In this document: positions 21,051 to 61,245 of the stretch, piece after piece
Numbering within the stretch: the first letter of the stretch is position 1
How the letters are laid out: every line of letters starts with the position of its first letter
Assembly: GCA_973895155.1 (NCBI GenBank)
Contig: OZ316893.1
Location: forward strand, 22,789,844-22,853,843
Direction: 5' to 3'
DNA length: 64,000 nt
Origin: Marsupella aquatica
Lineage: Eukaryota; Plantae; Marchantiophyta
Position numbers and translations under genes: made by a program
Notes under the pieces: generated by a model
What the model saw: only the letters and a program-made list of their open reading frames with translations
What the model was told of the DNA's origin: nothing
The model's database searches: none

Positions 21051-21065
21051 GTAACCAAAGTCTTA

Positions 21066-29600: not shown

Positions 29601-30820
29601 GTGATCTTCATGAGACAGCCGCTAGGTTTTGTGAAGAAAGGGCAAGAGGATTTGGTTTGCAGATTGCTGAGATCCTTGTACGGGTTGAAACAGTCACCAA
29701 GACAGTGGAATAAGCGGTTTGATGATTGGATTCGTGCACAAGGCTTTCACAGGAGTGTGTTTGACCCATGTGTGTATCTTAAACCGGTGAAGAATGTTAT
29801 CTTTGGGTTCATTGTTTTAGTACTTTATGTGGATGACATGCTAATTGCAGCCAAGGATAGGTCTGAGATTGTTAAGCTCAAGGCATTGCTTAGTGCAGAG
29901 TTTAAGATGAAGGACTTAGGGCCAGCTAAGAGGATTTTGGGTATGGAGATCTCGATGGAGATCACTAGGGACTTGGAGGCTGGCAAGCTATGGTTGACGC
30001 AGAGCAGTTATGCGAGGAAGGTAATTGCAAGGTTCAACATGGGGCATAGCAAGCCAGTAAGTACCCTGTTGGCTCCACACTTCAAGTTATCATCAGCGTT
30101 CTGTCCTACGGATGACACAGAGAAGGGGTTGATGTCAAAGGTTCCGTATGACAGGCAGTGGGGAGTCTTATGTATTTGATGACTTGCACTAGACCTGATC
30201 TTGCCATGGCTATGGGCAAGGTGAGCAGGTACATGTCGAATCCAGGGAAGGTACACTGGGAAGCAGTGAAGTGGATTATTCGGTATTTGGAGGGTACCGT
30301 GGATCATGGTCTATTGTTTGATGCACATGCTGATAATGCTAGATCATTGATGGGCTATGTAGATGTTGACTATGCACAGGATCTGGATCGGAGGAGGTCA
30401 ACAACAGGTTATGTGTTCACACTTGGAGGTTGATGCATAAGTTGGAGGTCTACTTTGTAGAAGTGTATTGCTCAGTCTACTACAGAAGCGGAGTATGTTG
30501 CAGCAGCGGAAGCAACAAAGGAAGCGATTTGGTTGGATAGACTTATCAGTGAGATGGGATTGCCACAGGGGAATGTGAAGCTCCATTGTGATAGTCAGAG
30601 TGCACTCCACCTTGCTGTGAACCAGGTGATGGACAACAGTGTGAAGCACATCGACGTTAGGTACCATTTTATCAGGTAGGCTGTGTCTGATAATATGTTT
30701 GAGCTAGTCAAGATTGATGATAAACTCAACCCGGCTAACGCTTTTACCAAAGTGATTCCTTTGGAGAGTTTTCTAGACACCGTGATGCGTTGTAGGTTTT
30801 GCAATTGCCTCACAAGTAGG
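26660..30820 (+). pseudogene. Copia gag-pol polyprotein with many stops and frameshifts
   Basis: Zinc knuckle CWKCNQVGHFKRDC; degenerate protease WILDCVCSFH; LWHSRLGHMSEKG and YIHSDVWGP (GAG-pre/integrase); RT YKARLVAKGFTQ, LYGLKQSPRQW and LYVDDML; RNase H region with in-frame stops. Boundaries are approximate. Confidence 0.92.
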
Positions 30821-32800: not shown

Positions 32801-35233
32801 AAGAATGGGACTGAGGGACAAATTTTGGACACTTCTCCTTTTTGGACACTTCTGTTTTATATGGCCAGTGGTGGTTTATCTAGGTAATGCGATGTAATGC
32901 GCTTATGGAATCTGAGCTTAGTCAAAACCAACTTTAGAGGATCCAGTCTCATTGGTGAATACCATCCAAGGATTTTGAAGGCTATGTGCATTTTGTTAAG
33001 AACACTCTCTATGATGTGTGTATGAATCAACTCTGCAACATTGTCTTGTTCTTTCTTTGGACTATTGATCACACATGCTCCTGAGTAGATCGTCAATACT
33101 CTGTTGGATGGGGATGGGTCTACTTTTGGTTAATTTAAAGACACACGAAAAAACTGAGAACCTAGGGCCCTCCAGGGAGAAAACTGGGGAGTATCGGTGA
33201 CAAGATGAAACTTGCATGCAGCAACCAAGGCACAAACCTGGAACCTAAATAACGTCTTTCCTGGATGAAGTTGATCGACAAGAGTGGAAAAATTAAAATA
33301 TTTGCCGATCTCGGAGATTCTGTCTGATGCGTCTTCCCGGTGCGTCTTTGGAATCGGCTACGATAACCTTTTGATCTATGCGAAAAAATGGCAGCTGGAA
33401 TACACCGAATTCGAATAAGATGATTTCCTTTTATTTAGTGAGAAATTTGTAGAGACGCTGTGACACATATTTTGTTAGTTTATTGCCTTTACGTCTTCTG
33501 GACAGTGGTTTGAGAATTTTATGTTTGGTCGCTCTTCGTCGATTCTGTGACTGATACCCTAGCAGGGCTGCTTGCGTCCTTGAGATGCTGAAGTTTTGTT
33601 AAGTAGGGCCAGTTCAATAGGTATGCTGGAGAGATCAGTGTCGTGCTCTTCACAGTGTTGCCTTCAATCGATTATGTAGTTTCTTAGCAGAGCTGGCTGC
33701 CTCCTCGAGATACTGAAAGTTTGTTGACGAGGTCCACTCAAATAAGGGATGGGAGCTTCGAGCAGCCAGCTGCGAGGACATGCAAAAATGACATGCTTGC
33801 TACTCTGTCTAGTAGCAAGTAAAATGTGTGCTGCGTGAACACTGCCCGGAGCGCTGCAGTTATTCATAAATAGTTCATGTTTGGAATTGCATAGAAAATG
33901 CTTGTCACTTCTTTGGTACATGGCGAGCCACGGCTCAATATGAGATTCTTGATAGACATCCACGAATTTTGTTGTGAAGCGCGTGACCTGCTGCCGTTAC
34001 TCTTCTCAAGTCCTTGTTCCCGTTATGGAACAAAATTCGGGGATGAGAAGATCGCGGTCAATGTAGCAAGTGCTCGATCACGGATGAGAACCAAAGGTAG
34101 TCCAAGCTTTTCCATCCCTCTTCAAAACATGAAGAACAAAAGACGAAGGGCAGCTCTCTTGACTAGTCACCACGCTGAAGAAGTGTAAAACTTTTTTACT
34201 TTCCAAGTCCTCGATTTAGGCAGATCACTAACAGAAGACGAACGATGTCGGGATCAACGGGTGGGTTGTGTACTTCCTATATATCCAGAATCCAGGACCT
34301 ACACCAGCATGAGCACTTGATTGGGGAGTTAGAGCACGTCTACTGTCTTGCAGTCTGTAGGTAGTCTGTACCAATACTAAATTGAAGATCGACTTGACTG
34401 AGGTCCTCATAAATTGGAACATGAGGGGTTTCCATACGGTTTCCACACCAGACAGTATGGAAAACCCTCATGACCCCGGCTTGTCTCCCCGATCGAGTTA
34501 GTAAACAAACCTTGTACCAATAACGTGAAAGTCTCCGAGGCTATCTGGAAGAAATCTCCTGACCATGAAGACCATTGCACCCAGATGTCTAATTAAAGCT
34601 ACACAAGCACCGTCGAAGCTTGGAGACCAGGGCAGTATGGGAAGATTGCCTTGGTTCCGTCACTGGGTTTAGGTCTTCCAAAATTGTCGAAGATTTGCAA
34701 ATCAAATCCACCACCTGGAAGAGCTCTTAATTAGACAATTGCAGCCCCCACTTTGAACGCCAATTAAATGCTCAAGCTTCTCATATACGCTATCTGGAAG
34801 ACCATCTAAATTAGGCCAATCCCGTATATCCTACGTAGAGTTGTGATTTGTGTTCGTAGGCGGAGCCCTCTCTGTGGACGACAGTAGTTCTGTAGGTGGC
34901 TCTTGTTGTTTGACTGTTTTATCATATCCAGCTGTTCTAAACAGAAAATGCCTGTGACTACGAAATGACCCTTAAGATCGCTGACTATATATTCTTAAAC
35001 ACCCTCGAGATCAATTCAGTTTCACTAGCGCCCTGTCTACTGCACTGGGTCATCTGGGTAGATTTTCAATTACACCAGGAGAAGGTTTTGGCAGCGAGTA
35101 GCTCCCTTAGACATTGCATGGTTGTCTAGCCGAGCCAACATTGTAGTACACGGGGGATTGTGGTAGATTGACTGCTTAGAAAGGTCAGAGGAAATAGTTA
35201 AGGCAGCCACTCCAATTGCATTCGGAGAGAACG

Positions 35234-36448
35234 ATGACGGCAATTTGGGGCACTCCAGCCCATGACGCATCATTAGATGCACCTGCAGGTGATCAACTTC
35301 TTCTTCCGGGGCTCCCGGATCACATCACGTTGGAGGAGATAGTCCCCAGGTTAATGTGGAGAGACTTTCACTTCCTGAAACTGGTCAGCCGCGGCTGGTG
35401 TCATGTAATCCGAACTCGACAGACATACAGGGCAAGAGTTCGTGCTCACACAACAGAGACTTTGGTTATCTATGACCACTTCATCGAAGATTCGGATGAG
35501 TATGATCAGAAGGCAATTGCTCTCTATTCGTTGAAAACGAGCGGGTCTTATAAGCTTCCACCAACTCCAAATGTTGACAAAGGGATCCCATTCGGTTGTC
35601 GGTGGGCAGCTGTTGATGGAAAAATATATGTCGTGGGTGGATGGGTGAACCATTATATAGTTGGCAGTGTGTACATGTTGGATCTGGCCGCCGGAAGACC
35701 ATGGAAAGTGTGTGCAAGTATGCGACAGCCAAGACAAGAGTTTGTATGTGGTATCCTGCACGGGAAGATTTACGTGTTTGGGGGATTAGACGGCGCCAGA
35801 GAACTTTCTGGGACGGAAGTGTATGACCCCAAGGAGAATACTTGGACTCCGATTATTCCCATAAAGTCTATGGAATATCCTGAACACTTGCCGGGACACT
35901 TACGAATAGTTGGAGAAGAGATTGTCTTACACGACCAGAAGCTTCGATGCCCACAGACCATTGTTGACTGCACTAATGCCGAAGTTTTTGACTGGGTTAT
36001 GTCGAGCGACCCACGGTCTTTGAAGTTTTATAATCCGGTGAAAAATGAGCGGAGAAAGATTGAAAGTTGTCAGATGCCCGCCGGAGTAGGATTTCTGGTG
36101 CGGGGGAAACTCTTTTGGTTGAGTGAAAGTGCAATTTTTGTTTATGATGTTAGTACCAGTTCATGGATGCAGTTGCATTCATGTGAGTTTTTTGGGTTTG
36201 AGTCAATTGAATACGTGTTGGCAAACGCAATTTCTGTTGTAGAGATAGAAAATGGTGAGCTTTTAGCGATACTTGAAATGTACACACAAGATGACCACGA
36301 GAACGTCTTCTGTCGACATGTAGTTGTTCAAAGCAATGGCCACGGTAACAAGAGTCAAGAGACAATTTCGTGGCATAGGAAAGATCTCGAGTTTCTAGAT
36401 TGGCCGGATGATGACATTCTTCAGTACATGTATCCTATCCAGCTATGA
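35234..36448 (+). CDS. F-box/Kelch-repeat protein, 404 aa, intronless
   Basis: F-box LLPGLPDHITLEEIVPRL..LKLVSRGW. Kelch repeats AAVDGKIYVVGG..W and ILHGKIYVFGG..EVYDPKENTW. First ATG is at 35234; the ORF track starts at a TTG. Confidence 0.92.
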   Translation: MTAIWGTPAHDASLDAPAGDQLLLPGLPDHITLEEIVPRLMWRDFHFLKLVSRGWCHVIRTRQTYRARVRAHTTETLVIYDHFIEDSDEYDQKAIALYSLKTSGSYKLPPTPNVDKGIPFGCRWAAVDGKIYVVGGWVNHYIVGSVYMLDLAAGRPWKVCASMRQPRQEFVCGILHGKIYVFGGLDGARELSGTEVYDPKENTWTPIIPIKSMEYPEHLPGHLRIVGEEIVLHDQKLRCPQTIVDCTNAEVFDWVMSSDPRSLKFYNPVKNERRKIESCQMPAGVGFLVRGKLFWLSESAIFVYDVSTSSWMQLHSCEFFGFESIEYVLANAISVVEIENGELLAILEMYTQDDHENVFCRHVVVQSNGHGNKSQETISWHRKDLEFLDWPDDDILQYMYPIQL

Positions 36449-36469: not shown

Positions 36470-37435
36470 ACATGTCTTGTGTGTGAAGGGGATCTTGCAC
36501 CAACGACCTGATGTCTTTGCTTTGTTGTCCTATACTCCTAATATTGCACTATACCGGTGCTCTACAGTAGTTGAAGAACTGAGTTATCCGTTAATGCATA
36601 AGTTTTCAAATTGTACTTATGATTGATACTCTATGGACTCCTTGAAAAAATAGAAACCACCTGTACGTAGCCTTGGACTGCCTGTCTGAACTTCTAAATT
36701 GTGTGAAACTATGTAAACTTGTGACGTCTCACCTCTATTACGCTTGAATTCCATCTAGGTTCAAATCCATCTAGACTCAAGTTCATGAAACACATCGCTT
36801 TCTGTGTTCAATTTGTGAAGTACCTGTGTGTCACCATTTCAATCATAATCCCCAGATTTCGAAATAAATAATATCCAATGATTGAAGCATTTGCTTTAGA
36901 AAAGTTGGAATGCCTACAAATATAGAAAAAAAAATCTCGGACACATAGATGTTAAGTATTTTCAAATCATTACGATTATAAGTTTCACAAAAGCATTTGC
37001 TTCATCTTATTTCTGAGAAAATCAATTAATAAGTTAATCCTGGATTCGATTGTAAAGTTACTCTGTATCCACTTGAATTCTAATGCCCAAATGTCGAACT
37101 AAATATCATCTAAAGAATCATTTGATCTAGAAAAATTGGAACCAGCTTACAAACATAGAGAATTCTAACTCGGAGACGTAAGAGATTTGCATGACACATA
37201 TGTTAAACATTGTCGAATGATCACAATAATTTAGAGTTTGCCAAAAGCATTTTGCATCATCTTCCAATCCTGAGAAAAACAAACAACAGGTGTAGCGAAA
37301 GGCTGAAATTGGTCAAGTTCCTCGTTTCCTATCGATTTCGTCTACTAAAGCAAGATTTTTCCTCTAAAACACAGTCAAAGGAAAGGCAAGTGGAGTAAGT
37401 TCGAGATCTACTATCAGCTAACCTGCAAGAACCAG
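36470..37435 (+). repeat. Segmental-duplication block, copy downstream of the F-box gene
   Basis: Colinear by eye with 19090-20225 and 48440-49200. Confidence 0.8.
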
Positions 37436-41867: not shown

Positions 41868-44800
41868 TTACTGCGTCCTGACTTTGGAAGTAGGAAGTCT
41901 TCCCACGTCAAATAACGTGTGAGACAAGAAACCTGCAGGGCTAACGAACTTTGGTATCGCAATATTGTCTCTGATGTATAGAACTGGTGCAAAGTCAATT
42001 GACAACAGAAATCCCATAATGAAAGATCTGACTGTCAGTGGAAAAGTTCTTTGCTGCCTCAATTCTGCATACTTTTCTAACGCCTTTTTGATACGTTCAG
42101 CGTCACCATCTTCAGAAATAACAACACCCAGAGTTTGAGCTAAGACGACTGCATCCTCGATAGCAGTACATCCACCTTGGCCCAAATTAGGGGTCATAGG
42201 ATGCATGGCATCACCTCCCAAAACAACCCCTTCGCCGATGAGTGCAGGAGTCACACCGGGTATGTTCCATCTGTCACCTAAAGCTGCCCGGGACAGATTT
42301 TGGACAGGAGTTTTGTTCACCAACTCTGTCATCCTGTCTGGCCAGCGGCCATCTTGCATTGCGCGCAGGACCTCTTCCTTGACAAGGTTTCGATCAGTAA
42401 CCTTCGGCCCTGGAAACACACTCAATTCAAACATGTTATAGAAGCAATGATGTTAGTAAAAATTATAAACTTACCACTTGAAGCAGTTTTAAGTCCATGG
42501 CCAACTCTCCACATTGGTACACTAGGGAAGAGAACCGATGGCTGAGTACAGTACCTGGAGACGAGCTGTTAAACACATAAAACCAGTACACCTTCGAAGC
42601 TGAGAATGGAAATATGCCACAACGTGCCCCACTTCCCAAAAACTGAAGGCCGGAAATATCAAAATCATGTCCATCGGAATACTCTGCAACTCCACGAATT
42701 CCGATTTGCCCAACAAAGCGAGTGGGTGGGAACCCCATCCATTTTGCTACCACTGAATTTGCCCCATCACAACCCACCAAGACCTGCATACGTGCCACCC
42801 AAAGACCTAGAAAACAGATCAGGTCACTGTTCCTCGTTCTACAACGCAGCTATGTCGTCAAAAAAGAACATTAGGGTTTAAGCCTCCTACAGAAATTCTT
42901 AGTCTACGTGTACAAAGTACGAGCTCTCCCTCCCAAGAAGCCTTGCATTGACAGTTGCTTCTTACATCAATCATACTCCGCTTCAAGAAAAAAAGTATTG
43001 AGGAAAAATTAGGAATGAAAAATCAGCCATCCAACACACAGTGGTTCCATTTGTTCGTAAAGCGACGTTCAACACAGTTTTGGCTTAGGTTTTCCTTCCC
43101 AAAGTTACAAGAGTTGTACACGTTGGATGAATTGCGGTGCCATGATGTAAAAGGAAAGATTGTCAATTAAGACGAACGTAACCGTCCCCTATATTACACA
43201 CCTTGGTGGATATGACGGACCCATCCTCCAGCTCCAGCTTCGTCAACCCGTCTCGGGGTTCCTTACGAATGGCACACACTCTGGAATTAAGTTGGAGTGT
43301 CCCTGGTGGCAACTCCGCCGCGAGAGCCTCCACTAAGGCTTTGCGCTCCACTCCGCGTACCTCATGTGGCCTGCGAGAGAATCGGCGAAATCAGGCAGCG
43401 CCCTTGAGCTCCATACATACAACCCGTTGTTTCTCTTCGAACTGGATGCATTCTTTGTAGGTCCCGATTGTCATTTTCAATCTTGTGTTGTTCCTTCAGT
43501 TAGCTCTGCTCTGCTCTGAAGAACTATCTCCGTTTCCTAATTCCATAGCACTAACTCAATTCAATTTTCATACCCAGGACTAGAGATACAGTCCACCACA
43601 GCCGTTTGCTTCACAACCGGAATGAAAATTATGATCAGCTGTAGACAAAGATTCCTAGGTGGGAAAGTTACCTACCCTCCTGCACACTCCCTGAATTTAA
43701 GTTTTGTTAGCAATTTTGTCCCAGAACGGTCATACAAGTCCATCCTGCACGCATCCAGTAGCCAAGGCCGACAATCAATGGTCAAGACTGGTGTAAAACA
43801 GTCAAAGAGGTTCTAACCCAGATACCCAATTGTCCCAAAACTCGCAAACTAGCCGCATCTCTCAATCAGCTATAGAAGGTTTGATGCTCACCCAGTCAGT
43901 AGGTCAAACAAGTGAATGAGATACAGTCATAGCTCACTCGGTACGAAATTCAAGGCGAAGCAATCTCCCCTGTTCCTACACTGGATTGAATGAGCTGTCC
44001 TTGACGTCGCCTAATCTAGAATCATTCCCGAATCGAAAAGAACTCAGCCGGCACAGGTCCTCCAACTAGGGAAGAATTGGGTCCCTTACTCATCAACTTG
44101 TAGGTGGGTTTCTCGGAGGATATCGGCAACACCCAGAGAGTCTAGAGCCCGCCAAGCATTTCCCCAGAGAAACAGAGAGGCCCCTGACGCTCTGATGGAT
44201 GGAGCTCGTTCCAGCACAAGAACCTTGACTCCAACCCTGAGCTCAAATCATCAACGAAACACAGGTCACACAATCTCCACCTAAACAAATTCCATATCGG
44301 CCTTGACAGGATCTACACCAATGCATCCAATATGCCAGATTATTCCTCTCCAGTAACCGCCACCTTCGTGGCTTATTTGAACTGAGTCCACAATTCCAGG
44401 ATCCCCTTTGGTCCAAGACTGTGTTCCACGACATTCAATTCAACCCACATATGCAGAAATCATCCAATTTCTATTAATTGTTCCGCTACCTCAGTGGAAG
44501 GGAAGCTTCCAGCTAGTATGGCCACAGAATCAGCACTGACCTGTGAAGAGCAACGGCAGCAGAAAGACCTGCAATGCCACCACCGACGATGACAACCTTG
44601 TGAACCAAATTTTCAGCCTCAGCGTTTTCCACTTGAGGAGCTTCCACATCTGAAACTGTCTGGCCCCTCGCCACCGCCACTCCATGCCTCCCACTCCTGA
44701 CCAATTTGCAAGAGGACCCCTCCTGAGCCTGAGTCACCGCATGTGCACTCGACGAAAGGCTTCCTGCTGCACTCAGCCTTTTGAATCTGGCGTGCACTGG

Positions 44801-44887
44801 TGATCCGCTTACATTCTGGTTTTGTGGCACAGCCAGATCACAATGCAAGCCCACCGAAGCCAGGGACGTCGTCGTCAGAGCGGCCAT
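41868..44887 (-). CDS. FAD-dependent monooxygenase (FAD_binding_3 family, monooxygenase-2/CTF2-like), 500 aa, 6 exons, probable plastid transit peptide
   Basis: GT-AG exons 44887-44541, 44236-44090, 43744-43676, 43370-43202, 42783-42555 and 42409-41868 sum to 1503 nt in one frame. Motifs VVIVGGGIAGL (GxGxxG), LVGCDGANS (DG) and GDAMHPMTPNLGQGG (GD). Ser/Ala/Thr-rich N-terminus. Confidence 0.93.
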
Positions 44888-45783
44888 GGTGGGCAAGACA
44901 ATTCAGAGGCAACAGCAGCAACGTCGTGGAATGTAAAAGAGTTTATTGTACAAAGATTTGCTTGAGCTGACCCTGAAATGATGCCAACCAGTGCAGTCCA
45001 GGCTAAATATGTGAGTATTCTCAGTAGATGAGGAGGGTCACCTGTTAGCTCCAACCATACCAGAACTGACACTTCTCCTGAGCATACTGGGTATGTCTAT
45101 AATAAAGACTTGGTAATTTTGTACAAGTTCAATTATTATACAAGTTTGAGAGAATCAAGAGTAGTGAAATACATTCAGAGTGTGTTTTGGCTCCATGTTC
45201 TCTTTATTATATAGTTGTTTAGAGTGTGTTTTGGCCCTAAGTTCTCTTTACTATATAGTGTCAAAGTGGTCAAATAGGAGGTACGGTACGGTAACAGCTT
45301 CATTTCATATAATTGATAATTCCAATTACACAATGCCAATGAAACAGAACACAGATTCCCACTGTCAATGTCCTTCACTAGTCCCTCCTTCTCGCACTGA
45401 TGACTGATCCGCCTCCTTCCATCATGGTGGTCTGGTTGGGGGAGACTTTTTCTCTCTTCTCTGGGTGCGCTCCTTCTATCAGCCCCCTTAATTGTCTTTT
45501 TTCCCTTCTGCCTCCTTCTCATAGGAGGTTATTGTTGTTTTGTCTTTTGGAATAAAGTTTCTCGGGGCAGTGTTCCCTTTAAAATAAATTAAAATTAAAA
45601 ATAAATGTCCTTCACTAGTGTACACCAGTGAAATAGAGCAGCATGGGAAATAGCTTGTGCCTTTTCCCATATTTGTTGTTAGGTCACAACAGTTGGACTC
45701 ATCATACCCTCAGCCCTCATAGTGGTGGATTCAATTGATAAGTGCATGAAACTATTTTATGGAATTGTCAGCTGAACTTATCA

Positions 45784-48089: not shown

Positions 48090-49610
48090 CATAGTTTCAA
48101 ATATGTTCTTGGGTCCTACCAGATGACAATGATCTGAACAATGCTACTATGATAAAACATGTACAACATAGTTTCAGATATGTTGTTGGGCGATTATCTA
48201 CAATGCATTCAAGTTCAGCCAATAAGGGGAGCACTTGGATATTTGCAGGGAGGAGCTTCTTTCATGGAAATTGCATTTATTTTTTTGGCAGTTTACAAGA
48301 GACGGTGCACAAAAGAGGCTCATTATCCACAGATTTATAAGTTTATAACCTATGTAAGAATCAATTTTCTGTGCTCTTATTTATAAGTGCAATACCTCTG
48401 TAAGAGTCAATTTTTTTGTTCTCCATAAGAGCAAAGCTCCGATGTCTTGTGTTTGTAATCATGGGGATTCTTGCACCAAGGACCAAAATGTTGTGTAACT
48501 GACTTATCCATTCGTGAATAATTTTTCTATTTGCACTTGTGGTTGATACTGTAGGGACTCTCTGAACAAATCATAGAAACCATCTGTAACCTTGGACTGC
48601 CTGTCTGAATTTCTAGATTGTGCGAAAGTGTGTAAGCTTGTGACGTCTCACCCTGGTGAAGCAAAACCAGGCATCCATCTATGTACGTTCAAATGTATGT
48701 AGACTCGATTTCATGTAGCACATATCTTTCTGTACTCAATTTGTGAACTAGCTGTGCGGCACGATTTGAAACATAATCCCCAAATCTCGAACTACATAAC
48801 ATCCAATGAATCATTTACTTTAAAAGTCCCAATGCCTACAAACATAGAGAAATTTTTCTCGGAGACCTAAGCTATTCACATCAGAGAGATGTTAAATATT
48901 GTCAAAGGATATCAACTCTGTATAAAATCCTGAGAAAATCAATCAACGCGTCAATCCTGTATTAGATTTGTGAAGTAGGTGTGCAGTACCATTTGAGTCG
49001 TAATCCCCAAATTTCGTACTTATTATCGAAACAATAATTTGATTTAGAAAATTTGGAACAGCCTACAAACATAGAGAACTCGGAGACGTAAGATATTTAC
49101 ATGACAGAGATTATAACATTGTCGACCGATCACAAATTTGAGTTTCACAAATTGGCTTCATCTTCCGATCCTGCGAAAAACAATCAATAAGGCAATCCTG
49201 TATTCAATTAGTAAAGCAGCTGTGTATCACCATTTGAATCAGTCACCAATTTGATTCGAAATTTTGTGAACTACATAACAGCGAAAGAATCATTTGATAT
49301 AGAAATTTTGGAACAGCCTATAAGCAGAAAGAATTTTCACTTGGAGAAGATATTTACATGACAGAGATGTTAAGACACACGACAGAATATAGAAGCCCAG
49401 GTTGTCCTGTGCGCTTGCAAAGGAGCAAGTTTCCGTAAATATTATCTGTGGATAGTTTCCTTCCAAAATCCACATCGACGGTTGCCTAATTGTCCTTACC
49501 TGGACCCAAACTGATTGAGGCAGGCTACAGGTGAATTGACTGGAATGCATGATAAAGAACAGTTTCGGTGACAACGGCGTTGTTCGGGTTTCCTCACCAA
49601 GCATTGGATG
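48090..49610 (+). repeat. Segmental-duplication block, copy on the 3' side of the NLR
   Basis: Colinear by eye with 18650-19870 and 20800-21035. Confidence 0.8.
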
Positions 49611-50079: not shown

Positions 50080-52530
50080 TTAAAGCTGAAACTCCGGAAA
50101 AGCTACAGGAAACTGGACCAAATAGTTGTAATCTCTCGAATCTGCGTGTTTGAGGCCCAGAGCTGAGCATCTTTCGGCATCCTTTCGCGCTCCGTCTGTG
50201 TCCCCCAGTAAGAACTTGACATAGCCCCGGTGCTTCAAGCATTCATAGTCATCAGCGGTAATTTCCAAGGCTCTTGTCAGGTCTTCCAATGCTCCGTGGA
50301 GATTGCCTGCCATGCGCTGTAGTATTCCCCTTACTTGCAAGAAGAAATCCCTATCATTGTAGCCATACACACTGGCGTCGAAATCGTCCCAAATTGCAAG
50401 GGCTCCCAGAAATTCCTTCTCCTTTACTTTCTCTCTAACTTGCTCATGCGACAACCTGAAACGTTCTCCCACCCAATGCTCCCGTCCCTTTAGGCTGAAC
50501 TTCAGAAATGCTAGGGGTAATTGCACCACAGGATCCATTGCTATGCATCTTTCTGCATCCCTTCGCGCTCCACTGTCATCCCCCATCAAGTATTTGGCAT
50601 AACCCCGTTGCTTGAGCAGGTCATAATCGTCGTCGCCTATTTCCAAGGCTGCTGTCAGGTCTTCCAAAGAACCATGGAGATCGCCTGCCATTCGCTTCAC
50701 TATTCCCCTTTCTTTCAAGAAGAAAACAGTATCATTACAGCCACACACGCTTGCGTCAAATTCATCCCAAATTGCAAGGGCTCCCAGAAAGTCCTTCTCC
50801 CTTACCTTCTCCATGACTCTCTCATGTGACAACCTGAAAAGATTTTCCAACCAATGCTGCCTTCCCTTCAGTCTGAATTTCAAAAATGCTACGGGCAATC
50901 CTCCCAAACAATCCCACCCAAGCACCACAGGATCCATTGCCATGCATCTGTCTCCATCCTTTTGCGCTCCACTGTCATCCCCCATCAAGTATTTGACGTA
51001 ACCCCGATGCTTGAGCAGCTCATAATTGTCGTCGTCTGCTTCCAAGGCTTGTGTCAGGTCTTCCAAGGCTCCATCGAGATCGCCTGCCATTCGCTTCAAT
51101 AACCCCCTTTCTTGCAAGAAGAAAACCCTATGATGATAGCCACCCACCCTGGCGTCGAAATCGTCCCAAATTGCAAGGGCTCCCAGAAATTCCTTCTCCT
51201 TTACCTTCTCCATCACTTTCTCATGTGAGAACCTCCAAAGATTTTCCTCAAATCGTTCACTTCCCTTCAGTCTGAACTCCAAAAATGCTACAGACAATCC
51301 TCCCAAACAATCAGGCAAATCCACCACAGGATCCATTGCCATGCATTCTTCTGCATCCTTTCGCGCTCCACTCTCATTTCCCATCAAGTATTTGACATAA
51401 CCCCGATGCTTGAGCAGCTGATAATTGCCGTCGACTGTCTCATATTCAGAGTCATCACCGGAAATCTGCAAGGCTGTTGTCAAGTCTTTCAACGCTCCAT
51501 GGAGATCGCCTGCCATTCGCTTCAGTATTCCCCTTTCTTTCAAGAAGAAAACCCTATCATCATAGCCACACACCATGGCGTCGAAACCGTCCCAATTTGC
51601 AAGGGCTCCCAGAAATTCCCTCTCCTTTACTTTTTCCATGACTTTCTGATGTGACAACCAGAAAAGATCTCCCAGCCAAAACTTCCTTCCCTTTAGTTTG
51701 AACTCCAAAAATGCTACGGGCAATCCTCCCAAACAACCGGGCCCATCCACCACAGGATCCATTGCCATGCATCTTCCTGCATCCTTTCGCGCTCCATTGT
51801 CATCCGCCATCAAGTATTTGACGTAGCCCCGGTGCTTGAGCAGCTCATAATTGTGGTCATCCATTTCCAAGGCTGCTGTCAGGTCTTCCAGCGCTCCATG
51901 GAGATCGCCTGCCATTCGCTTCAGAATTCCGGCTTCTTGCAAGAAGTAAACTCGATTATAAAAGCCTAAGACTCTGGCATCGAAATCGCACCAGATTGCC
52001 AAGGCCCCCCGGAAGTCTGAAATTGTGCCCTTGTCTATCACTTGAGACAATACTGACTTCACTTGGTTATCCTCCTCCTCTATTTCTCTTTGTCCTGCCA
52101 GCCTGAAATGCATATAAGATACTGTTTCGTTCGTGAACGCTGAGGTGAGCAACCATCCATGAAAATAATTTCTGCCCCGGTTTGTGCAAAGAAGTTTCAA
52201 GGCATTCGCGCCATCATCTTCTGCACGACCGAGATCCTCCAACAAGAAGTTCACGTAGCCTCGGTACCTCCAACACTCATACAGGCTGCGGTACTCATCA
52301 GAATCTGCATGATCAGGGATTACTTCCAATGCGGCCGTGAGATCTTCCAAGGCTCCCTGGCGATCTCCCGCCTTACATCTCAATATGCCCCTCTCTTGCA
52401 AGCAGAATCTCAGGAACGCGGGTTTTACCCCTTGGAGGTTTGCGGGACACATATCTACTAGAGCTCCCTCATAGTCATGTTCCGACACCTTCTCCATCGC
52501 ATTTTTGTGGATGCTCGTCATGAGCCATTG
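50080..52530 (-). repeat. Intragenic tandem array of six TPR-like units (periods 378-426 bp among the conserved units)
   Basis: The anchor AAATTGCAAGGGCTCCCAGAA (or a one-base variant) is at 50391, 50769, 51168 and 51594. More divergent units lie near 51995 and 52460. Confidence 0.9.
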
Positions 52531-55500
52531 TGGCGGTACGATGTTGGAGTCCTCACCGGTCAAAGAGAAACGCTTATCCTGTACCTGAAAGATCTTGCGT
52601 GATGAGGCTAGAGGGGCCGCACCAGCGTCTCCCAACCAAGTAGGCACTTCCTTGACGTATGGGAGGACAGAGAGCTCCAAAGTGCGCAAAGACAGCATAC
52701 TCTTCATGAAGTCAGGAATGCTCCTTATAGAAAGCCGCGAAAGAACGAGACGAGTAAGCGCCTTCAGTTTGGCAAGAGAGTCGGGCAGCTTCTTGATCGG
52801 AATAAGACTTGTGTTTCCACTGATTTCCAAGTTTTCTAACTGCGTGAGTTCGCCGAAGGGAAATACTGAGAGGATATTCGAAGGACAATCTGTCAGCTCA
52901 AGGCGCTTCAAACTGGATAGTTTTCCGAAAGAACTCACGACGGTTTCGAAGTGAAATCCTTGCAACTTGAGGTCTTCCAATGCTAATAGGTTTCCAAAGG
53001 AGTCGGGGGCTCGTAAGTCGCGACAACCACGGATTTCTAGGTTCTTCAAGGCAGACAGGTGTCTAAAGGAGTCGGGCAAGGCTTGCAATTCCCAACAGTC
53101 AGTGATTGCTAGGTGCTCCAAGGCGAACAGGTTTCCAAAGGACTCGGGCAGAGCACGCAACTTCCAGCATTCCCGGATTTCTAGGTGCTTCAAGGCAGAC
53201 AGCTCCCCAAAGGAGTCGGGCAAGGCTTGCAATTTGAGACGCCTGATTTCGAGGTGCTTCAAGGCAGACAGGCTTCCAAAGGAGTCGGCCAAGGCTTGGA
53301 ATCTGTCACAATCATAAATTTCTAGGTGCTTCAAGGCAGACAGGTTTCCAAAGAACTCGGGCAGGGCACGCAAGTCCCAACAACGACTGATTTTTAGGTG
53401 CGTCAAGGCAGTCAGGGTTCTAAATGAATTAGGTAGGTATAAGAAGGCACAACCAATGAACACAAGACGATCGAGTTCGGATAGATTCCCGAAGGTGTCA
53501 GGAAGGGAACCTAAGCCACCGCACTGCTCAAATTCAAGATCCTTCAACTTGAATAGAGCACCCAATTCCTCGGGCAGCATACGAAGTCGATGGCAATACC
53601 TGAATTTTAGGTACCGCAGCTGCGATAGTTTGTAAAACGTCTCAGGCAAACTGTTCAGATCGCAGTTCTCGAATTCCAAATGTTCCAACTGGAATAAATT
53701 GCCGAATTCATCCGGTACAGAGTGCAAGAATTTACAGATAAAGATCCTAAGAGCTAATAATTTTCCAATAGATCTGGGTAGGACCCCCACACGGTCTAGA
53801 TACAAAACCACGAGACGGTCTTGAAGCGCAAAGTTGAAAGTATCAAGGCGTCCAACACATTTGAGTACGACAAGCTTACTCGGGAATGATCTCTCTTCCT
53901 CAACACCATCAATGAAAAGCGGGCCATCCACTTCCAGATACTGCAATTTCTTGAGTTTGTGAAGCCTGCGGCTTGAAATGTGAATTTCTTCACTTGAGGA
54001 AGCATCACTTGAGGACATCCCGCTGTTGGACAACCGCAAGGCATGAATATCCTACAATGTCATACCACCTCACCATTTAGTTTAATCTCATCACTTCAGC
54101 GCTAGTTGAGGACTTTCAATACATACAATTTACACAACGACTACTGCAAACGCATCTAACTTGTTGTCATTCCTGAAACCCTCGTATACTGGACTGCGAT
54201 AAAATGCTTCGCAATGTTACATATGCCTCAAACTTGACACCTGACCACCAGAGAGTTTAATCTCATCAATGTAGAGCTCACCTGATTCGCCAACTCCTCA
54301 TTGTCTTGTAGTAGCTTTAAAGCAATTTTCTGATCCCATACTCTGGACATTCCACTGTTACTCAGCTCAGCAGCTATTTTTTGTCCCAGACTTAGAAGTT
54401 GGTCATGTATCTCAATAGGTTCATTCTCCTCCACATGATAAACAAGAGACCTGTCCACCAAGGTTTCCCATTGTAGGGTCTCGTACTCCGTCTCATATGC
54501 TGTCCTCCAAGCTGCTTTTGCATCGCGCAAACACCAAGAACGCCCTTGAAAGAAAGTTGTGGCATCTAGGAACATTTTCTGCTCCACCTCGTCAAGTCCG
54601 TCGTAGCTCACTCTCAACTTTGCCCACAATCTCTTGTCAAGATCTCGAATATTGTCAGCCTTTATCACAGCTTGCAAAGTTTGCTGCCAAAACTTGCTAT
54701 CCTGTTTGAATTTTAGGTGATTTCCAAGAACTTCAAGCGTAAGGGGCAGCCCAGAACACTTCTTCACTATCGAAACCATATCACGTTTCAAGTTTGCGGG
54801 TAACGTTTCAGGCTGTGGGAAAGCATGGCTTAGGAACAGCTCTTCTGAATTTTTTTGGTCCAAAAATGGGACTTTAAAAATATAAATACCGGCCACGCGG
54901 ATGAGAATGTCCCTATCGCGAGACGTAACAATGAACCGACTGTTTGAAGAGGGACCATCAACCATGTGCGATAATACGGTTATATCAAGATCATCACTGA
55001 TATTATCCAAAACAAGTAGTAGTTCCTTCTCAATCAAAGCAGACCAGTCCTCCTTGTCTTCAACCTTCCTTCCAAGGCGGTGCAAATGTTTCCACACTAC
55101 CTTCTTTACCTCCTCAATGCCCCCTCCTTCCACCTTGAGATCAGGGACAAAACAACTGTACTCGTATGCGGGACTTAGTTCATTGAATACCGCCCGTGCG
55201 AGAGTGGTTTTCCCAAGCCCACCCATGCCCACCAAGCCCAGCGTTGTAAATTTCTGAAGCCTCCTTTTAACCTCCTGTACGAGAACGTCCATATTGACCA
55301 TGTGCTTTGGCAGAAATTCCCGATTTTGACGAATAGCTTGCCTTTCAACCACGGCTCTTTCTTCCTAGATTTGCAACAAGAGCAGGTTAGAAAAACAGCA
55401 ATCCTAAAGTTTTGATATGAATTTTGACCTTTCATTTGAGAAGACAGGACACAGGATGTCACTGGAAAACAAGGACATGCTGTTGTTGCATGAAATGACT

Positions 55501-57126
55501 AGTTAATTAAAGTAACGCCCTTCGCTGAAGTTTGTTTCTGGGCAACCTTTGAATTGTCGCAAACGCTGCTGAGGAGTGTTGTGAGGGCGGTGAACCTTCT
55601 GGAGGTTCTCTTCTTAGGTCTGCAAACGGAGAAATGGTCTGCGTCCTCATCAACATTAAAATACATTCCATCTCTGGCAGAGGCTTCTTCTACTACGGTA
55701 ATACCTTGGAATATGCCCTGCAAGACCACAGAGAAGATGTCAAATTGATGTAACGAAAAGGCAAATGGACATCGCTTTACCACTGGTGAGGCTTGTACTC
55801 AATAACATTTCAATAGTTGAGAGACTCGAAGTACGGACATTTATGTAAACTACGGTACATGTCTTGGTACCATATATTCAGAAAAATCAAACTCTACAAT
55901 CCAGATGAATATGCTTAGAAAAGATAACAAAATTTGTGCTTGGCCGAGACTTCCCCGTTTAAGCTCATCAATACACTACAGCGCCCAATTTTCAATTGAC
56001 CCGTCAAATGACTGGCCAAATTCATGACAAGACTTGCTACACTCTGAACCAGCTAAAAGAAAGGTAGAGTATGAAATCATCTGAAAGGATAGCAGCTGTA
56101 CCGTTTTCACAGCGCACATTTCCCCCAATCCTCCGATTTCCCACTTTCCGTAACGCGTGCATAAATTTTGGAAATCGAAATTCAGCCGGACCGTGCGTTC
56201 ATTTAGAATGGTGAAATAATCAAACAAACGGCGGCTCAAGACGCCTCTTGCTTTTCCTATATCAGCACAGCCGCGATGAGGGGTACTGTAGTAAAATACC
56301 CCTCTCAAATTATCAAGGAATTTCTCAACCTTGACCGCGTTCATGCTAGGCTTGGATGTGGCGTCTGCACGACGACACAGTTCCTTGATGACCAAACCCC
56401 CAAAAGAGTGGCCCACCAAGACCACCGGGCAGTGAGGCGTCTGACCAATGTTTGCCTGCATCAGATCACTGATCAAGTTTTCGCTAATTATGCGCATGTC
56501 AAAGTTCTCAGCAGAACGATAAGAGACAGCCAGGATATGTGCGTCAGGGAACTCCTCCGCGAGCCAGGACTTCGGCCAAATACAGCTTCCATCCCCACTT
56601 ATCCAGGTAGATAAGTGTGGTTCTGAGGATTCCCCAAACGGAAGCCCATGGAAGAATAAGACTTCTAAGGTGGGATCACCCTGCGGCTTGTGAAGCTCGT
56701 GGAGGGAGTCATTCACCTGAGATATCACGAACACAAGAAGCCAAGTGTCATTGGTTCATCATACTCGATCTGGTTCCAGAGAGTGCTGCAGTAGAAGAAA
56801 AACTCAGACATCCTAATACATTTTCTTAACAGCTTTCTCTGAAGTTGACCGTTTGAGCCAATTCAGGAAAGAATGTAAAAACGGTCAATCCACAGAGTAT
56901 CACTAAGGTAGAGATGAGGGGCCGTATGGATGATCACCTCCGGAGCTTGCAGACTCCATTTTTTTTCCACCTTGCTACGGCCTCGATTAGCTACCACGGG
57001 TCTCAGGAAGAAAAAGCCAAGCAGACAACAGAATATCAAAATAGACAGTTGGGCTATTTCGTCATTCGCCACTAGAATCGGAGAAAACCGCGCCCAAATT
57101 ACAAAAATCCAATCGATGGCACCCAT
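50080..57126 (-). CDS. Alpha/beta-hydrolase-NB-ARC-LRR (HNL-type) NLR immune receptor with N-terminal hydrophobic segment and C-terminal TPR-like repeat array, ~2009 aa, 5 exons
   Basis: Phase-0 GT-AG exons 57126-56938, 56716-56102, 55717-55547, 55364-54282 and 54051-50080 join with no stops. Hydrolase motifs VLFFHGL, GHSFGG, STPHRG and DADHFSVCRP. NB-ARC motifs GMGGLGKTT, LLLVLDNI, FIVTSRD, GLPLTL and IHD. 24-aa LRRs (LQALPDSFGxLSALKHLEI), then six ~130-aa repeats containing GALEDLTxALE..YELLKHRGYVKYLMGD. Confidence 0.92.
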
Positions 57127-60100
57127 GGCGAGCCTCAGAAGAAATACGACCACTTGTCGCCCTCAAGCATTGGGCCCTTCGAGTCCAAATCCTGCACCTA
57201 GCCCAAGAATGGGTCAACTGGTCAGTTCCATCATTGTGACGCCAGACTACACTAATTCAAGAAGCACTGAAATCGGAAGGCTAAACTTTTTCCATTACAA
57301 AGGGTAACGAGAACCGCTGATCAGGTACCTTCAAAATGTTCAATATTATCCGATGTGTTTTTCGTACTGCAAACATCACTCTCATATTTTTTATCGTATA
57401 GACTTCGATGCGCGCGGATTAGCAAACTCGATTGAATGAGGGAAAGCACATGGTTGTGCTTCGCTAACACTTTCTCTCGCAACTGCATTGATGTAAGCAC
57501 GCATATCAGAAAGGAAGATAGATCTACCGTAGTTCGTCTTGAGCGCAGATCAGTGAATATTATGACAAAGAAAGTCAGTGGGAGACTTGGACAGCCGTAG
57601 AACGATCATCCGTGCTGCGCACTCATGAGGTGAGCAGCTATCATTCGGGCCATCGTTGTAGCCACATCTGACAGTAGCTAGCCGATTTACCACGGAATGA
57701 ACTCTCCTCAGCGGCAAAACAGATAGAGTGACTCAAAGCAGAGGATTGGAAGCAGTGCAACAACCCAACTCCAAAGTCGAAGTACAATAGAATCTGAGAG
57801 TTTGTGATGGATCGTCAGTGCCTTCACTTTCCGACAACTTTGAGAGTAACTGGGAGAATACCTGTCCGATTCAGGAACCATGTGACGTTGCCTGCCAACA
57901 CACATAACGCATCTGCAGAGCGAGGACATACATTACAGAGCTCATAGAAACAACGCAACTGCCTGTAGTGAAGAACAGCAAAGCGAGCATACTGTGTGCG
58001 TACCTTTCTGCCTGGAAGGTATGGCGACGGCAGTGGATAGATTCAATCTGGGGAGCGCGAGTCTCGGTCCTGCACCTCAATCTCGGCCATCAGGAGATCC
58101 AGGAACCGAGCAAGCGACGATAACTAGTTCAAGTGGAGCACTCAGAAACTCGGCCCTGAATGGTTTAGCAAGGCCACGCCAGATTCGAAATTCAGCGTCG
58201 CGTATCGAACAGAATCTGCCATCAGGGCCACCGGTCTTGCTTAGAACGCAGCTGGTCTGGGAGGGAGTGTGGTCCGATGTCAAACGGAGCTGCGCCCAGA
58301 AGTCTTCCCGATCGAAACAATAACATCACGAAGGAATCCTGTGATGTAAAGTGACACTACAGTATTCTATGCAGAACCGAAAAGCCTAAGTTACTGTGTT
58401 TTAGCACGAGCGACTCAACGAGGATAGTCGGGATGGACACTTCTCGTGTGAGCTTTGATTTTTGGTTCGAGCCCTAATCTATAGTTCGATGGCGTTCGTA
58501 CAACGCGGCGAATCCATATCACGCGGCGTCCAAACCGACTTCCACTTGCGAACCTAATTAATAATGTTCTACTTCCGTCCAGGAACCCGGGCGGGAACTT
58601 CATAAGGAGGAACGACAGTCAAATGAATGCATGTTTTCTGCTAGAGAAGTCATCAGGAGATAATTTTAAAGAGCCTACAAAATCTTACTCACGAGCAGAG
58701 CGTGGGTTTAGACTGACAATAAAATAATGTTCTTCTGCTGCACGTCCGTGCACGGGGAAATCTCGGGGGGGAGGGAGAAAACTCGGGTCAAGAAGGGAGA
58801 GAGCCAATCCAGGTTTGTTCGGCCCCGATCTCCATCCTGCACTGCCGCACTAGGTTTGTCTGGAAGGGACAGTAGGAAGCTGGAAGGGAGGCCGGCCTTA
58901 GACGGTCATCGAAGGAAATAAATGGAGTCAAGCTTTGATTAAAGTTCCAAAGTTCCACTTGATTTGCGTTTCTCAATGATGGCCTGGACATTAATGATGT
59001 GCGTTCAGATTCTAGAGAAGTAATTTCAGGATTAGGAGAATGGTGTTCCGAATCTATCGAGGAGAGAAAATCATAGAGAGACCTTGAAAAATCGTTGTGC
59101 TCGTCTGTGAACAAATCTTTCCAGTTCCACGCATTGTTGTGCATAATGACTAAGAACAAATCACATCAAATCTTACAACAGCTCAGATTTGCTATAGAAT
59201 TGAAGGGCGACACACCCTGCGGTTAAATAAATCACATTTTGGAATCCATTCAAATCAGCTGAGTTCCGCTAGTGAATCTCATCCCACACACGTCCATGCT
59301 TGTCCGGATCCTCTCAAGTGAAAGTAATGTACAGATATAGTTCCAACATAAAGCCTGTTAAATGGAAATTGACCGGAAGAAACTTCGTCTCAAAATTCAT
59401 CTCAAATGACGGAGATTTCAATCCCCAATTTCCACAGAATGTAATCTGCCCTATGCTGACTTTCAGAATGGTCAGAGGAGCTTAACTATAAGTTTCAAGT
59501 ATCTTTTATGTCCAGTCTGACCAATGATGCTGCCCCCATCAATCTTGTATCCTATAAGCGCCTTGAAAAGCAAGAACATGGTGACGCTGCTACTAAGATC
59601 AAGAATAAAATCCTTCCTGGATGCAATTGATCGACAAAAACAAATCTCCAAGCTCGAAGATTCTGTCCGATGTGTCGTTTGTGACGACTACTGACAACTT
59701 TTCAAACTATGCAAAAACTAGCAGCTGGAATCATGGAATTCGAAGAAGACGATTTCCATTGCTGGAATTGTCAGTTGATCACATCATCGGTGTTAATCTA
59801 TAGATCAAACCATTTCAGAAGTCTGTAGAAGAGAAGAATTCAGCATTACTCCGTCACAGATTTGTGCAGCTTGCACTGTATGTATCGAGTCCTCCACCAT
59901 CACGCCAACCCTACTCAAGAGATCCATGCAGTACGTACACTTCTCTAATTTTGATTCAATGTCCACTCACTCAAGCCACGAGCTTGAATTCTGCTAATAT
60001 TGTACATTGGAATTTTCAAGGCTCCAGATGTGTTACTACCGCTTCCTTCACGTTTTCTTTAACTTGTTCAATCAATCCCTTGATATCAATCAGTTCAAAA

Positions 60101-61054
60101 AAGTTCAACTGAGACAGCCTAAGTTCGGACGACCCTGACGACCTCTGTTCTTGTTTATTATGGTTTGATCGTGCAAAGCTAGCACGTTGCAAAGGGTAGT
60201 GCTTGGAAAGTGGCTAAGGATGCTTATGACGGTTTTATCCAGCTCCGAGATGTGGGAGGTACATCGTCTGTCTTAGCATCTCAGTTGATTGTTGTCGTAT
60301 ATCGCTATCAACTTGCAAACATTCCACATACAACTCGGGCTTGAATTCGGATTTCAATTGTTCGAAGCAAATAGGTTTGATGTTCGGGGGAGAAGTAAAA
60401 GATGCGTCCCCATCGATCCAACAGACTTCGGTATTTTGAAACTGAATTATCTATCACTCATCCTCTAGCACATGAGTTCACTGACAGACTGTTCTTGCAA
60501 GGGAAGGGACGGAGAGAGATAGGGATCGATGTGCCAGGGCAGTCACTTCCGGGGGACTGTGTAAGATTTTCGATCTTGGGCTTACCAAGGAATTGTACAT
60601 TCAAATTCCCGTGCATGAGTTGCTTTTCACTGGCATTGGAGACGGCTGTTGAGAAGCTCGTACCGTATGGAGGACAGTAATATACATTCAACTATTAATC
60701 GCGCGCTGTTCATTGTAGCAAGGGACGTGACTTCAGGGTGGTGTAAGCTTTTCATATTCTTAGGCAGGCGTTTTGAAGATGACGAAGAGTGAACGTGGGT
60801 CGAGCATAGCTTTAGCGATTGACAGCTCTTTGCAGAACCAGCGCACTCTAAATCAGCATTCGAGATCGCTACTGAAGCTGCGACTTTGGCAGGAGAACCT
60901 CTGACGGCAGTGATCTCTCCGCCATCCGTATTGGACTGGCCCTCATTAACAACAAATTCAGCATCTCGACGAGGCAGCCAGCTCTCCTAAGAAACCACAG
61001 ATTCCGTCAAAGGCAGCACTATGCATGCTGTTGGTAGCTGTTGGTAAAGAATTA

Positions 61055-61245
61055 TGGACGAAGTTGCATTCATGTGAGCTTTATGGGTTTGAGCCAGTTG
61101 GAATAGGTGTTAGTAAAGTAACTCGGTAGTTGGACTAGGTGTTAGTAAACTCGGTTTCTGTTCTAGAAGTGGAAGATGATGAGCTTGTAGCAATGATTGA
61201 AATGTAAAGAGAAATGACCAACCAAAGAAGTCATCTGGACTATGG
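61055..61245 (+). pseudogene. 3' fragment of an F-box/Kelch paralog
   Basis: TGGACGAAGTTGCATTCATGTGAG..GGGTTTGAG..GATGAGCTTGTAGCAATGATTGAAATGTAA aligns with 36164-36320. It has an internal duplication, and TAC has become TAA. Confidence 0.8.

What the first reader, a model, noticed from the sequence alone, without database searches (positions are those of the whole stretch)
50080..57126. NLR with two tandem sensor scaffolds: anchor-hydrolase-NB-ARC-LRR followed by six TPR-like units
Seen: five phase-0 exons give an uninterrupted ~2009-aa protein. A full LRR domain is followed, in the same exon, by ~800 aa of TPR-like repeats. Established: hydrolase-NB-ARC-LRR (HNL) receptors are known from liverworts and other non-flowering plants. 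NB-TPR receptors are typical of fungi, algae and bacteria, where TPR normally replaces the LRR rather than following it. Inference: this is a hybrid NLR in which a plant LRR and an expanding TPR array (an integrated sensor or decoy) control an enzymatic effector. I do not recognise this four-domain architecture as described, but cannot confirm novelty without a search.
Basis: partly seen in the sequence, partly recalled or inferred. Interest (0 to 1): 0.88.

Follow-up and report, generated by a model that had tools for sequence, protein, structure and literature searches.

The report
Liverwort NLR with captured TPR tail
This is an intact liverwort-type plant immune-receptor gene (enzyme head, nucleotide switch, leucine-rich sensor) that ends in six tandem copies of a protein-binding module likely taken from a different family of moss and liverwort proteins, where the copies would likely serve as bait or a docking site rather than as a second variable sensor.

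Summary
Five GT-AG phase-0 exons give an open 2009-aa protein: hydrophobic N-terminus, alpha/beta-hydrolase (Ser167, His296), NB-ARC, LRR, then six ~133-aa units, each predicted to fold as a three-TPR domain. It has all three class-defining introns of liverwort HNLs.

The architecture is not unique. Four full-length Calypogeia fissa proteins share it, with 1-3 units. None of 36 Marchantia/Riccia HNL relatives carries the unit.

The unit is the conserved C-terminal domain of bryophyte ARM-TPR and NB-ARC-(ARM)-TPR proteins (40-48% identity). It was likely captured once, fused after the LRR's C-terminal cap, moved between two HNL lineages, and re-amplified by unequal crossing-over. Its predicted groove is conserved, dN/dS between units is below 1, and it lacks the Hsp90 clamp. 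That fits an integrated bait or docking domain better than a diversifying second sensor.

No transcript evidence was found. Nine literature searches did not show this architecture; one relevant supplement was unreadable. The scan earlier reported a Sphagnum hydrolase-NLR, with no TPR tail noted, and holds no look-alike of this array. Verdict: new variant of a known NLR class.

The parts
56938..57126 (-). Exon 1: Met-Gly start and hydrophobic segment (aa 27-45), putative membrane anchor
   Evidence: Kyte-Doolittle peak 2.38; colinear with the N-terminus of C. fissa P0004 at 27%; anchor role inferred
56102..56716 (-). Exon 2: most of the alpha/beta-hydrolase domain, nucleophile Ser167 (56407-56405) in GHSFGG, conserved Glu262
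   Evidence: Pfam Abhydrolase_6; alignment of 53 rows; coordinates
55547..55717 (-). Exon 3: end of the hydrolase with conserved Glu279 and His296 (55636-55634)
   Evidence: His in 51 of 53 aligned rows
54282..55364 (-). Exon 4: NB-ARC with P-loop (55229-55203), Walker B reading D-N (Asn446), GLPL and IHD (54410-54402)
   Evidence: Pfam NB-ARC 2e-26; motifs
52681..54051 (-). Exon 5, first part: LRR domain, including a block of 72-bp repeats
   Evidence: Pfam LRR_14; TRF period 72 at 52988-53424; model
52546..52680 (-). LRR C-terminal cap ending in a predicted beta-hairpin; the TPR array is fused just after it, with no intron
   Evidence: Strands in model; a similar motif lies near the C-terminus of 9 of 57 HNL relatives without TPR
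52099..52500 (-). TPR unit 1 (divergent; likely a chimera of C. fissa position-1 and position-3 unit types)
   Evidence: HMM 72 bits; half-unit scores
50494..52044 (-). TPR units 2-5 (52044-51694, 51645-51268, 51219-50869, 50820-50494), young copies of one unit type
   Evidence: HMM 152-173 bits; one clade with C. fissa P0021 unit 3, SH-aLRT 98; coordinates
50080..50442 (-). TPR unit 6 with the terminal tail, and the stop codon
   Evidence: HMM 169 bits; model

Best explanation
The gene encodes a hydrolase-NB-ARC-LRR immune receptor with six tandem three-TPR modules after the LRR; the modules were likely captured from the C-terminus of bryophyte ARM-TPR / NB-ARC-ARM-TPR proteins and likely act as an integrated bait for whatever binds that conserved domain. 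Shown: open gene, domain order, intact nucleophile and His, homology of the unit to the ARM-TPR terminal domain, fusion directly after the LRR cap, unit-number variation (1, 2, 2, 3, 4 or more, 6). Inferred from NLR biology: the hydrophobic N-terminus tethers the receptor to a membrane; the ADP-bound NB-ARC is held off; binding of a pathogen effector (or a modified host ligand) to the TPR modules, with or without the LRR, releases it; ATP binding and oligomerisation cluster the hydrolase domains, which execute the response. Extra units would raise avidity or reach. The ligand and the hydrolase substrate are unknown.
For: Unit HMM scores 60 bits or more per domain in 42 fetched proteins besides the window's own, of 316; all of them that carry a source name are from Calypogeia, Marchantia, Riccia or Sphagnum, and the best generic TPR protein reaches 55.8. 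In the ARM-TPR and NB-ARC-(ARM)-TPR proteins it is a single C-terminal domain ending in the same tail motif; window units 4 and 6 are 40-48% identical to five of these. One carrier class lacks NB-ARC (M. polymorpha P0236, ARM+TPR) and is conserved (last 120 aa 76-97% identical across Marchantia and Riccia versus 70-94% whole protein), as expected of a host target. The 26 units from the window and the C. fissa LRR-type set fall on one side of a branch (SH-aLRT 95, quick tree). Groove-position residues are shared by both families (Gln36 25/25 and 24/26; Glu37 25/25 and 22/26; Lys70 25/25 and 24/26; His71 22/25 and 21/26). Groove pN/pS among window units is 0.25-0.40 versus 0.57-0.61 in loops. 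Two Marchantia hydrolase domains trigger HR-like death in N. benthamiana, and integrated domains occur in Hyd-NLRs (PMC11218826 passages; preprint passages).
Against: No transcript, protein or phenotype data. A conserved groove fits a constitutive docking site equally well. Known integrated decoys often diversify at the binding face (recalled), which is not seen here. The unit tree is unrooted, so the direction of capture rests on distribution, and C. fissa is the only named source of LRR-linked units in the databases searched. The Walker B reads D-N where 52 of the 53 relatives with a motif match have D-D, which could alter switching. dN/dS among the youngest units reaches 0.67-0.75, consistent with relaxed constraint on extra copies.
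Confidence: 0.45

Rival explanations
1. The TPR modules are a constitutive docking or regulatory domain: they bind the same conserved host partner as the ARM-TPR proteins (or pair with those proteins) to localise, stabilise or auto-inhibit the receptor, while the LRR alone does the sensing.
For: Strong conservation of groove and tail across liverworts and Sphagnum; the most variable LRR positions show pN/pS 0.95 versus 0.25-0.40 in the TPR groove; the same module ends several different NB-ARC architectures.
Against: Most HNL relatives lack it (57 of 58), so it is not needed for HNL assembly; copy number varies from 1 to 6; the LRR figures rest on 7 short repeats near saturation.
Confidence: 0.27
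2. The array is a second, diversifying recognition solenoid like the hypervariable repeats of fungal NLRs, generating new specificities by repeat shuffling.
For: Active unit turnover: a chimeric unit 1 and four young copies; variable loops; several paralogue-like contigs in the same runs.
Against: All 10 pairwise dN/dS values are below 1 (0.27-0.75); groove positions are nearly invariant; units model as separate domains rather than one superhelix.
Confidence: 0.13
3. The array is a near-neutral passenger of recombination among clustered NLR genes, or is removed from the main transcript, and contributes little to function.
For: No RNA support either way; relaxed dN/dS in young units; a collapsed paralogue relic lies 35 kb away; many C. 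fissa relatives are annotated as fragments.
Against: 806 codons stay open; dN/dS below 1; the fusion is kept in two organisms whose closest proteins are 43% identical and on two NB-ARC lineages.
Confidence: 0.11
4. Each unit is a built-in Hsp90/Hsp70 co-chaperone clamp that recruits the chaperone by its EEVD tail.
For: Closest folds include the three-TPR domains of PP5, Hop, FKBP38/51, SGT and UNC-45 (Z 15-16, rmsd 2.0-3.3); UniRef auto-names the ARM-TPR relatives 'unc-45 homolog'.
Against: 0 of 5 clamp residues (K5 N9 - N6 - K2 R6, PMC2939883) are present: units 3-6 read H, M/R - E/V - E/Q/D, H/Q, and the Tom70 clamp Asn, Lys, Arg align to E, E, H.
Confidence: 0.04

Closest known systems
Bryophyte HNL / Hyd-NLR (Xue et al. 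2012, PMC3352924; Chia et al. 2024, PMC11218826)
   Same: Hydrolase-NB-ARC-LRR order, three phase-0 introns at the class positions, NB-ARC nested among liverwort HNLs, intact nucleophile elbow
   Different: An 806-aa post-LRR array of six three-TPR modules; neither paper's main text contains 'TPR' (0 occurrences)
Calypogeia fissa unnamed proteins P0004, P0005, P0006, P0219 (NCBI)
   Same: Same four-domain architecture and same LRR-cap/TPR junction; P0004 also shares the hydrophobic N-terminus
   Different: 1-3 units instead of 6; P0219 has Cys at the nucleophile position; annotated only as 'unnamed protein product'
Bryophyte ARM-TPR and NB-ARC-(ARM)-TPR proteins (e.g. M. polymorpha MPTK1_3g10370, MPTK1_5g10840; Riccia; Sphagnum)
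   Same: Same terminal TPR module and tail motif (40-48% identity)
   Different: One terminal copy; ARM repeats or other sequence instead of LRR; a distant NB-ARC clade or no NB-ARC
NLR-IDs and the post-LRR C-JID of RPP1/Roq1 (PMC10586772 passages)
   Same: An extra domain directly after the LRR that may bind ligand
   Different: TPR rather than jelly-roll; tandemly multiplied; apparent donor is another NLR-like or ARM family
TIR-NB-ARC-TPR (TNP) and fungal/bacterial NB-TPR receptors
   Same: STAND NTPase with TPRs at the C-terminus
   Different: There TPRs replace the LRR; generic TPR proteins score at most 56 bits per domain against the unit HMM; TNP sequences were not compared directly

Membership tests
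HNL / Hyd-NLR | N-terminal alpha/beta-hydrolase domain | tested here: met
   Pfam Abhydrolase_6 above cut-off; Ser167, Glu262/Glu279, His296 conserved
HNL / Hyd-NLR | NB-ARC with P-loop, kinase-2, GLPL, MHD, grouping with liverwort HNLs | tested here: met
   sister to P0004 inside the HNL set in both trees; kinase-2 reads D-N
HNL / Hyd-NLR | C-terminal LRR | tested here: met
   Pfam LRR_14, model; here followed by the TPR array
HNL / Hyd-NLR | Phase-0 introns within the hydrolase, between hydrolase and NBS, and between NBS and LRR (PMC3352924) | tested here: met
   Introns 56101-55718, 55546-55365, 54281-54052, all phase 0; predicted from DNA, not from cDNA
HNL / Hyd-NLR | Cell-death or enzymatic activity of the N-terminal domain | not testable with these tools
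   Reported for two Marchantia domains
NLR with integrated domain (decoy) | Extra domain homologous to a domain of non-NLR host proteins | tested here: met
   Unit is the terminal domain of ARM+TPR proteins without NB-ARC such as P0236, P0017, P0247
NLR with integrated domain (decoy) | The integrated domain binds an effector and is needed for activation | not testable with these tools
   No ligand known
Carboxylate-clamp TPR co-chaperone domain | Three-TPR fold | tested here: met
   Z 15-16, rmsd 2.0-2.4 over 115-124 residues to PP5 and Hop TPR1
Carboxylate-clamp TPR co-chaperone domain | K5 N9 - N6 - K2 R6 clamp residues | tested here: not met
   0 of 5
TNP / NB-TPR receptors | TPR in place of LRR, TIR or other head, distinct NB-ARC clade | tested here: not met
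   Full LRR present and HNL-type NB-ARC
Hypervariable-repeat NLRs (fungal type) | Diversifying selection at ligand-facing repeat positions | tested here: not met
   dN/dS 0.27-0.75 over 10 pairs; groove pN/pS 0.25-0.40; small sample from one gene, so a few selected loop sites are not excluded

The most novel reading that the evidence does not exclude
Leafy liverworts built a receptor class by capturing the terminal domain of another NLR-like family as bait: a mobile 'last LRR + cap + TPR' cassette that jumps between hydrolase-NLR lineages and is tuned by copy number, so that one NLR class guards, or pairs with, another through a shared, undescribed bryophyte TPR-plus-tail module.
Probability: 0.25. 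Interest if true: 0.8.

Novelty: new variant of a known kind. Interest (0 to 1): 0.58.

Why it matters
Hydrolase-NLRs are the major NLR class of liverworts and nothing is known of what they detect. This family names a concrete candidate: whatever binds the conserved terminal TPR domain of bryophyte ARM-TPR and NB-ARC-ARM-TPR proteins. That domain has single-copy carriers in the model Marchantia polymorpha, so the ligand can be sought there. It also gives a traceable case of domain capture, cassette exchange between NLR lineages and tandem amplification of an integrated domain.

Tried and rejected
No whole genome is held for this window, so paralogues could not be counted. Sequencing-run search: no RNA holder listed; laid contigs showed no intron-skipping joint; neither bears on expression. 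Joints between repeat units may be cross-mapping and were not used for copy number. A complex prediction of the unit-6 helices with their own 30-aa tail gave no verdict (score 0.01, alignment not used), so the idea that the tail folds into the groove is untested. The wide VIA fold search could not be run; the second-look search was used. The ESM Atlas returned only generic TPR clusters. PDB sequence search gave only weak generic TPR hits. The supplement of PMC11218826, which lists integrated domains, could not be read and may record LRR+TPR proteins. LRR-versus-TPR selection contrast is suggestive only (7 repeats of 14 codons, pS near saturation). The careful 76-row NB-ARC tree did not finish; the quick tree and a careful 30-row subset were used; six proteins without a P-loop match were skipped. 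The hydrolase was not folded. Rejected: assembly artefact or two fused neighbouring genes (single ORF, homologous junction in C. fissa, bridging contigs); bacterial origin of the array (bacterial multi-TPR proteins rank only by summed weak matches); a Ceratodon kinase-TPR protein (P0232) did not reach 60 bits per unit; linkage with the nearby RALF genes as a duplicated block (no shared flanks).
Full report
Observation. On the minus strand, enumeration of all nearby GT/AG sites gave four open five-exon models, all phase 0; the longest has 2009 aa, with introns of 221, 384, 182 and 230 nt. Exon 5 is one 1323-codon ORF holding both the LRR and the repeats. Pfam finds Abhydrolase_6 in exon 2, NB-ARC in exon 4, and LRR and TPR families in exon 5. 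The repeats have a 399-bp period and resolve into six units at aa 1204-2009. The model aligns from residue 1 with Calypogeia fissa P0004 at 43% over 1694 columns; by region, hydrolase 69%, NB-ARC 62%, LRR 58%, cap 69%, unit 1 51%. Contigs with 5-33 mismatches bridge the LRR-cap/TPR junction in 4 of 4 laid runs from 3 studies, so the junction recurs in related copies. Splicing is predicted, not observed. The source organism is not given; the closest named relatives are liverworts.

It is an HNL. Xue et al. (PMC3352924, passages) define the class by a hydrolase head and three phase-0 introns: within the hydrolase, between hydrolase and NBS, and between NBS and LRR. All three are present. In an alignment of 53 rows (those of 63 proteins with a nucleophile-motif match), Glu262 and His296 are kept in 51 and the window retains Ser167 in GHSFGG; which acid completes the triad is not settled. 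The NB-ARC is sister to P0004 among liverwort HNLs. Its Walker B reads D-N, the only such case among 53 motif matches.

The architecture is a small family. A search with the repeat region returned C. fissa P0004, P0005 and P0006, each with hydrolase motif, NB-ARC, LRR and TPR units. A search with the P0004 hydrolase-NB-ARC region returned 60 proteins of 7992 candidates scored, 58 of them new; one of these, C. fissa P0219, has a unit, and none of the 36 from Marchantia or Riccia does. A full HMMER scan added C. fissa fragments with LRR plus units or units alone. Unit numbers are 1 (P0219), 2 (P0005, P0006), 3 (P0004), at least 4 (fragment P0021) and 6 here.

Where the unit comes from. A profile of 13 units, searched against longer proteins and then per domain over 316 fetched proteins, scores 60 bits or more in 42 proteins besides the window's own; the best generic TPR protein scores 55.8. 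Nine non-window profile inputs include four ARM-type carriers, so those four are circular, but they were first found with the window sequence alone and the other carriers were not in the profile. Carriers outside the LRR set are ARM-TPR proteins without NB-ARC, NB-ARC-ARM-TPR proteins, and NB-ARC proteins with no ARM match, from Marchantia, Riccia, Calypogeia and Sphagnum. In them the unit is single, sits at the extreme C-terminus and ends in the same Leu-Gly...hydrophobic tail. In a quick tree of 53 units (four short fragments and a duplicate left out), the 26 units from the window and the C. fissa LRR-type set, which includes three fragments with no LRR in them, lie on one side of a branch with SH-aLRT 95. 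The tree is unrooted; capture from the ARM-TPR side is inferred from that side's wider distribution.

How the gene was built. The LRR ends in a cap with a predicted beta-hairpin. A similar motif lies within the last 120 residues of 9 of 57 relatives without TPR, so the array was likely appended to the natural end of an HNL; there is no intron at the junction. TPR-bearing HNLs fall in two NB-ARC lineages, and an AU test on 30 of the 76 rows rejects their monophyly (p 1.6e-52). Yet the seven best matches to the window's 45-aa cap among 65 proteins are all TPR-bearing, from both lineages. This points to exchange of a last-LRR-cap-TPR cassette between lineages; repeated loss elsewhere is the alternative. 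Within the window, unit 1 scores best against C. fissa position-1 units in its first half and position-3 types in its second, and units 2-5 group with one C. fissa unit type: loss and gain by unequal crossing-over is the likely cause.

Structure and constraint. AlphaFold models of LRR end plus units 1-3 (mean pLDDT 80.9) and of units 5-6 (87.6) show six-helix units joined by linkers under pLDDT 50, pTM 0.59 in both. Whole models match TPR proteins only with rmsd 11-28 A, while one unit matches three-TPR domains such as PP5 and Hop TPR1 at Z 15-16 and rmsd 2.0-2.4. The array is therefore predicted as beads on a string, though shallow alignment of linkers may cause part of the low confidence. 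The Hsp90 clamp (K5 N9 - N6 - K2 R6; PMC2939883 passages) is absent. dN/dS between units 2-6 is 0.27-0.75 over 10 pairs; groove positions, assigned by TPR numbering recalled from general knowledge, give pN/pS 0.25-0.40 against 0.57-0.61 for loops, and key groove residues are shared with the ARM-TPR family. This argues for a conserved ligand and against a hypervariable sensor, on a small sample.

Mechanism. Most likely (0.45) a membrane-tethered hydrolase-NLR whose TPR modules are an integrated bait for a binder of the conserved ARM-TPR terminal domain, with activation, oligomerisation and hydrolase output inferred from NLR biology and from the cell-death activity of two Marchantia hydrolase domains (PMC11218826 passages). 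A constitutive docking or inhibitory role (0.27) fits the same conservation. A diversifying sensor (0.13), a passenger (0.11) and a chaperone clamp (0.04) follow.

Literature. Nine searches were run, seen as listings with abstract starts. Term-matched passages were read in 10.1101/2022.10.19.512840, PMC7145615, PMC11218826, PMC12512272, PMC9825502, PMC10952240, PMC10586772, PMC3352924, PMC2939883, PMC12787737 and PMC13765792; none was read whole. None of these passages describes hydrolase-NB-ARC-LRR-TPR or this module. [quoted passage not shown] The supplement of PMC11218826 was unreadable and subscription papers are not covered. The scan's own records hold no look-alike of the array and, by words, two Sphagnum NLR notes, one a hydrolase-NLR.

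Verdict. A real gene and a real, apparently undescribed variant of the liverwort HNL class, with a traceable donor domain and a testable ligand hypothesis. Interest 0.58.

Noticed in passing
window 20803-21632 (-): Collapsed paralogue of the NLR: promoter, exon 1, intron 1 and the start of exon 2 (73% to 56657-57260) run almost directly into sequence matching the gene's 3' flank (76% to 49394-49605), as if about 7 kb were deleted.
   Followed up: partly
window 6931-7401 (+) and 16368-16835 (-): Two convergent RALF peptide genes (Pfam RALF E 1.5e-16 and 5.7e-22), 75% alike over the mature region.
   Followed up: partly
window 35198-36448 (+): Intronless kelch-repeat gene with an F-box-like N-terminus (kelch by Pfam; F-box by eye); a short related piece at 61054-61117.
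   Followed up: no
window about 41868-44902 (-): Exons of an FAD-dependent monooxygenase gene.
   Followed up: no
window 3002-5478 (-) and 26659-30179 (+): Broken LINE-like reverse transcriptase and Copia-like retrotransposon reading frames, recognised by eye from translations.
   Followed up: no
window 19353-19899, 36577-37316, 48497-49373: A shared non-coding repeat of about 230 bp, in tandem copies, lies downstream of the NLR, downstream of its relic and downstream of the kelch gene.
   Followed up: no
window 55002-55004 (-): Walker B second acidic residue is Asn; 1 of 53 motif matches among relatives. Could slow ATP hydrolysis (inference).
   Followed up: partly
proteins P0013, P0174-P0177, P0182, P0183, P0185: C. 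fissa has a hydrolase-NB-ARC-ARM-TPR protein (P0013), and several C. fissa and Riccia HNL relatives have two P-loop regions.
   Followed up: no
protein P0219 and several Riccia HNLs: Hydrolase nucleophile position is Cys (P0219) or Gly (e.g. P0215), suggesting non-catalytic or altered heads.
   Followed up: no
window 11339-12044 and 21957-23658: A 69-70-bp minisatellite of about 10 copies and a long 18-19-bp purine-rich satellite.
   Followed up: no
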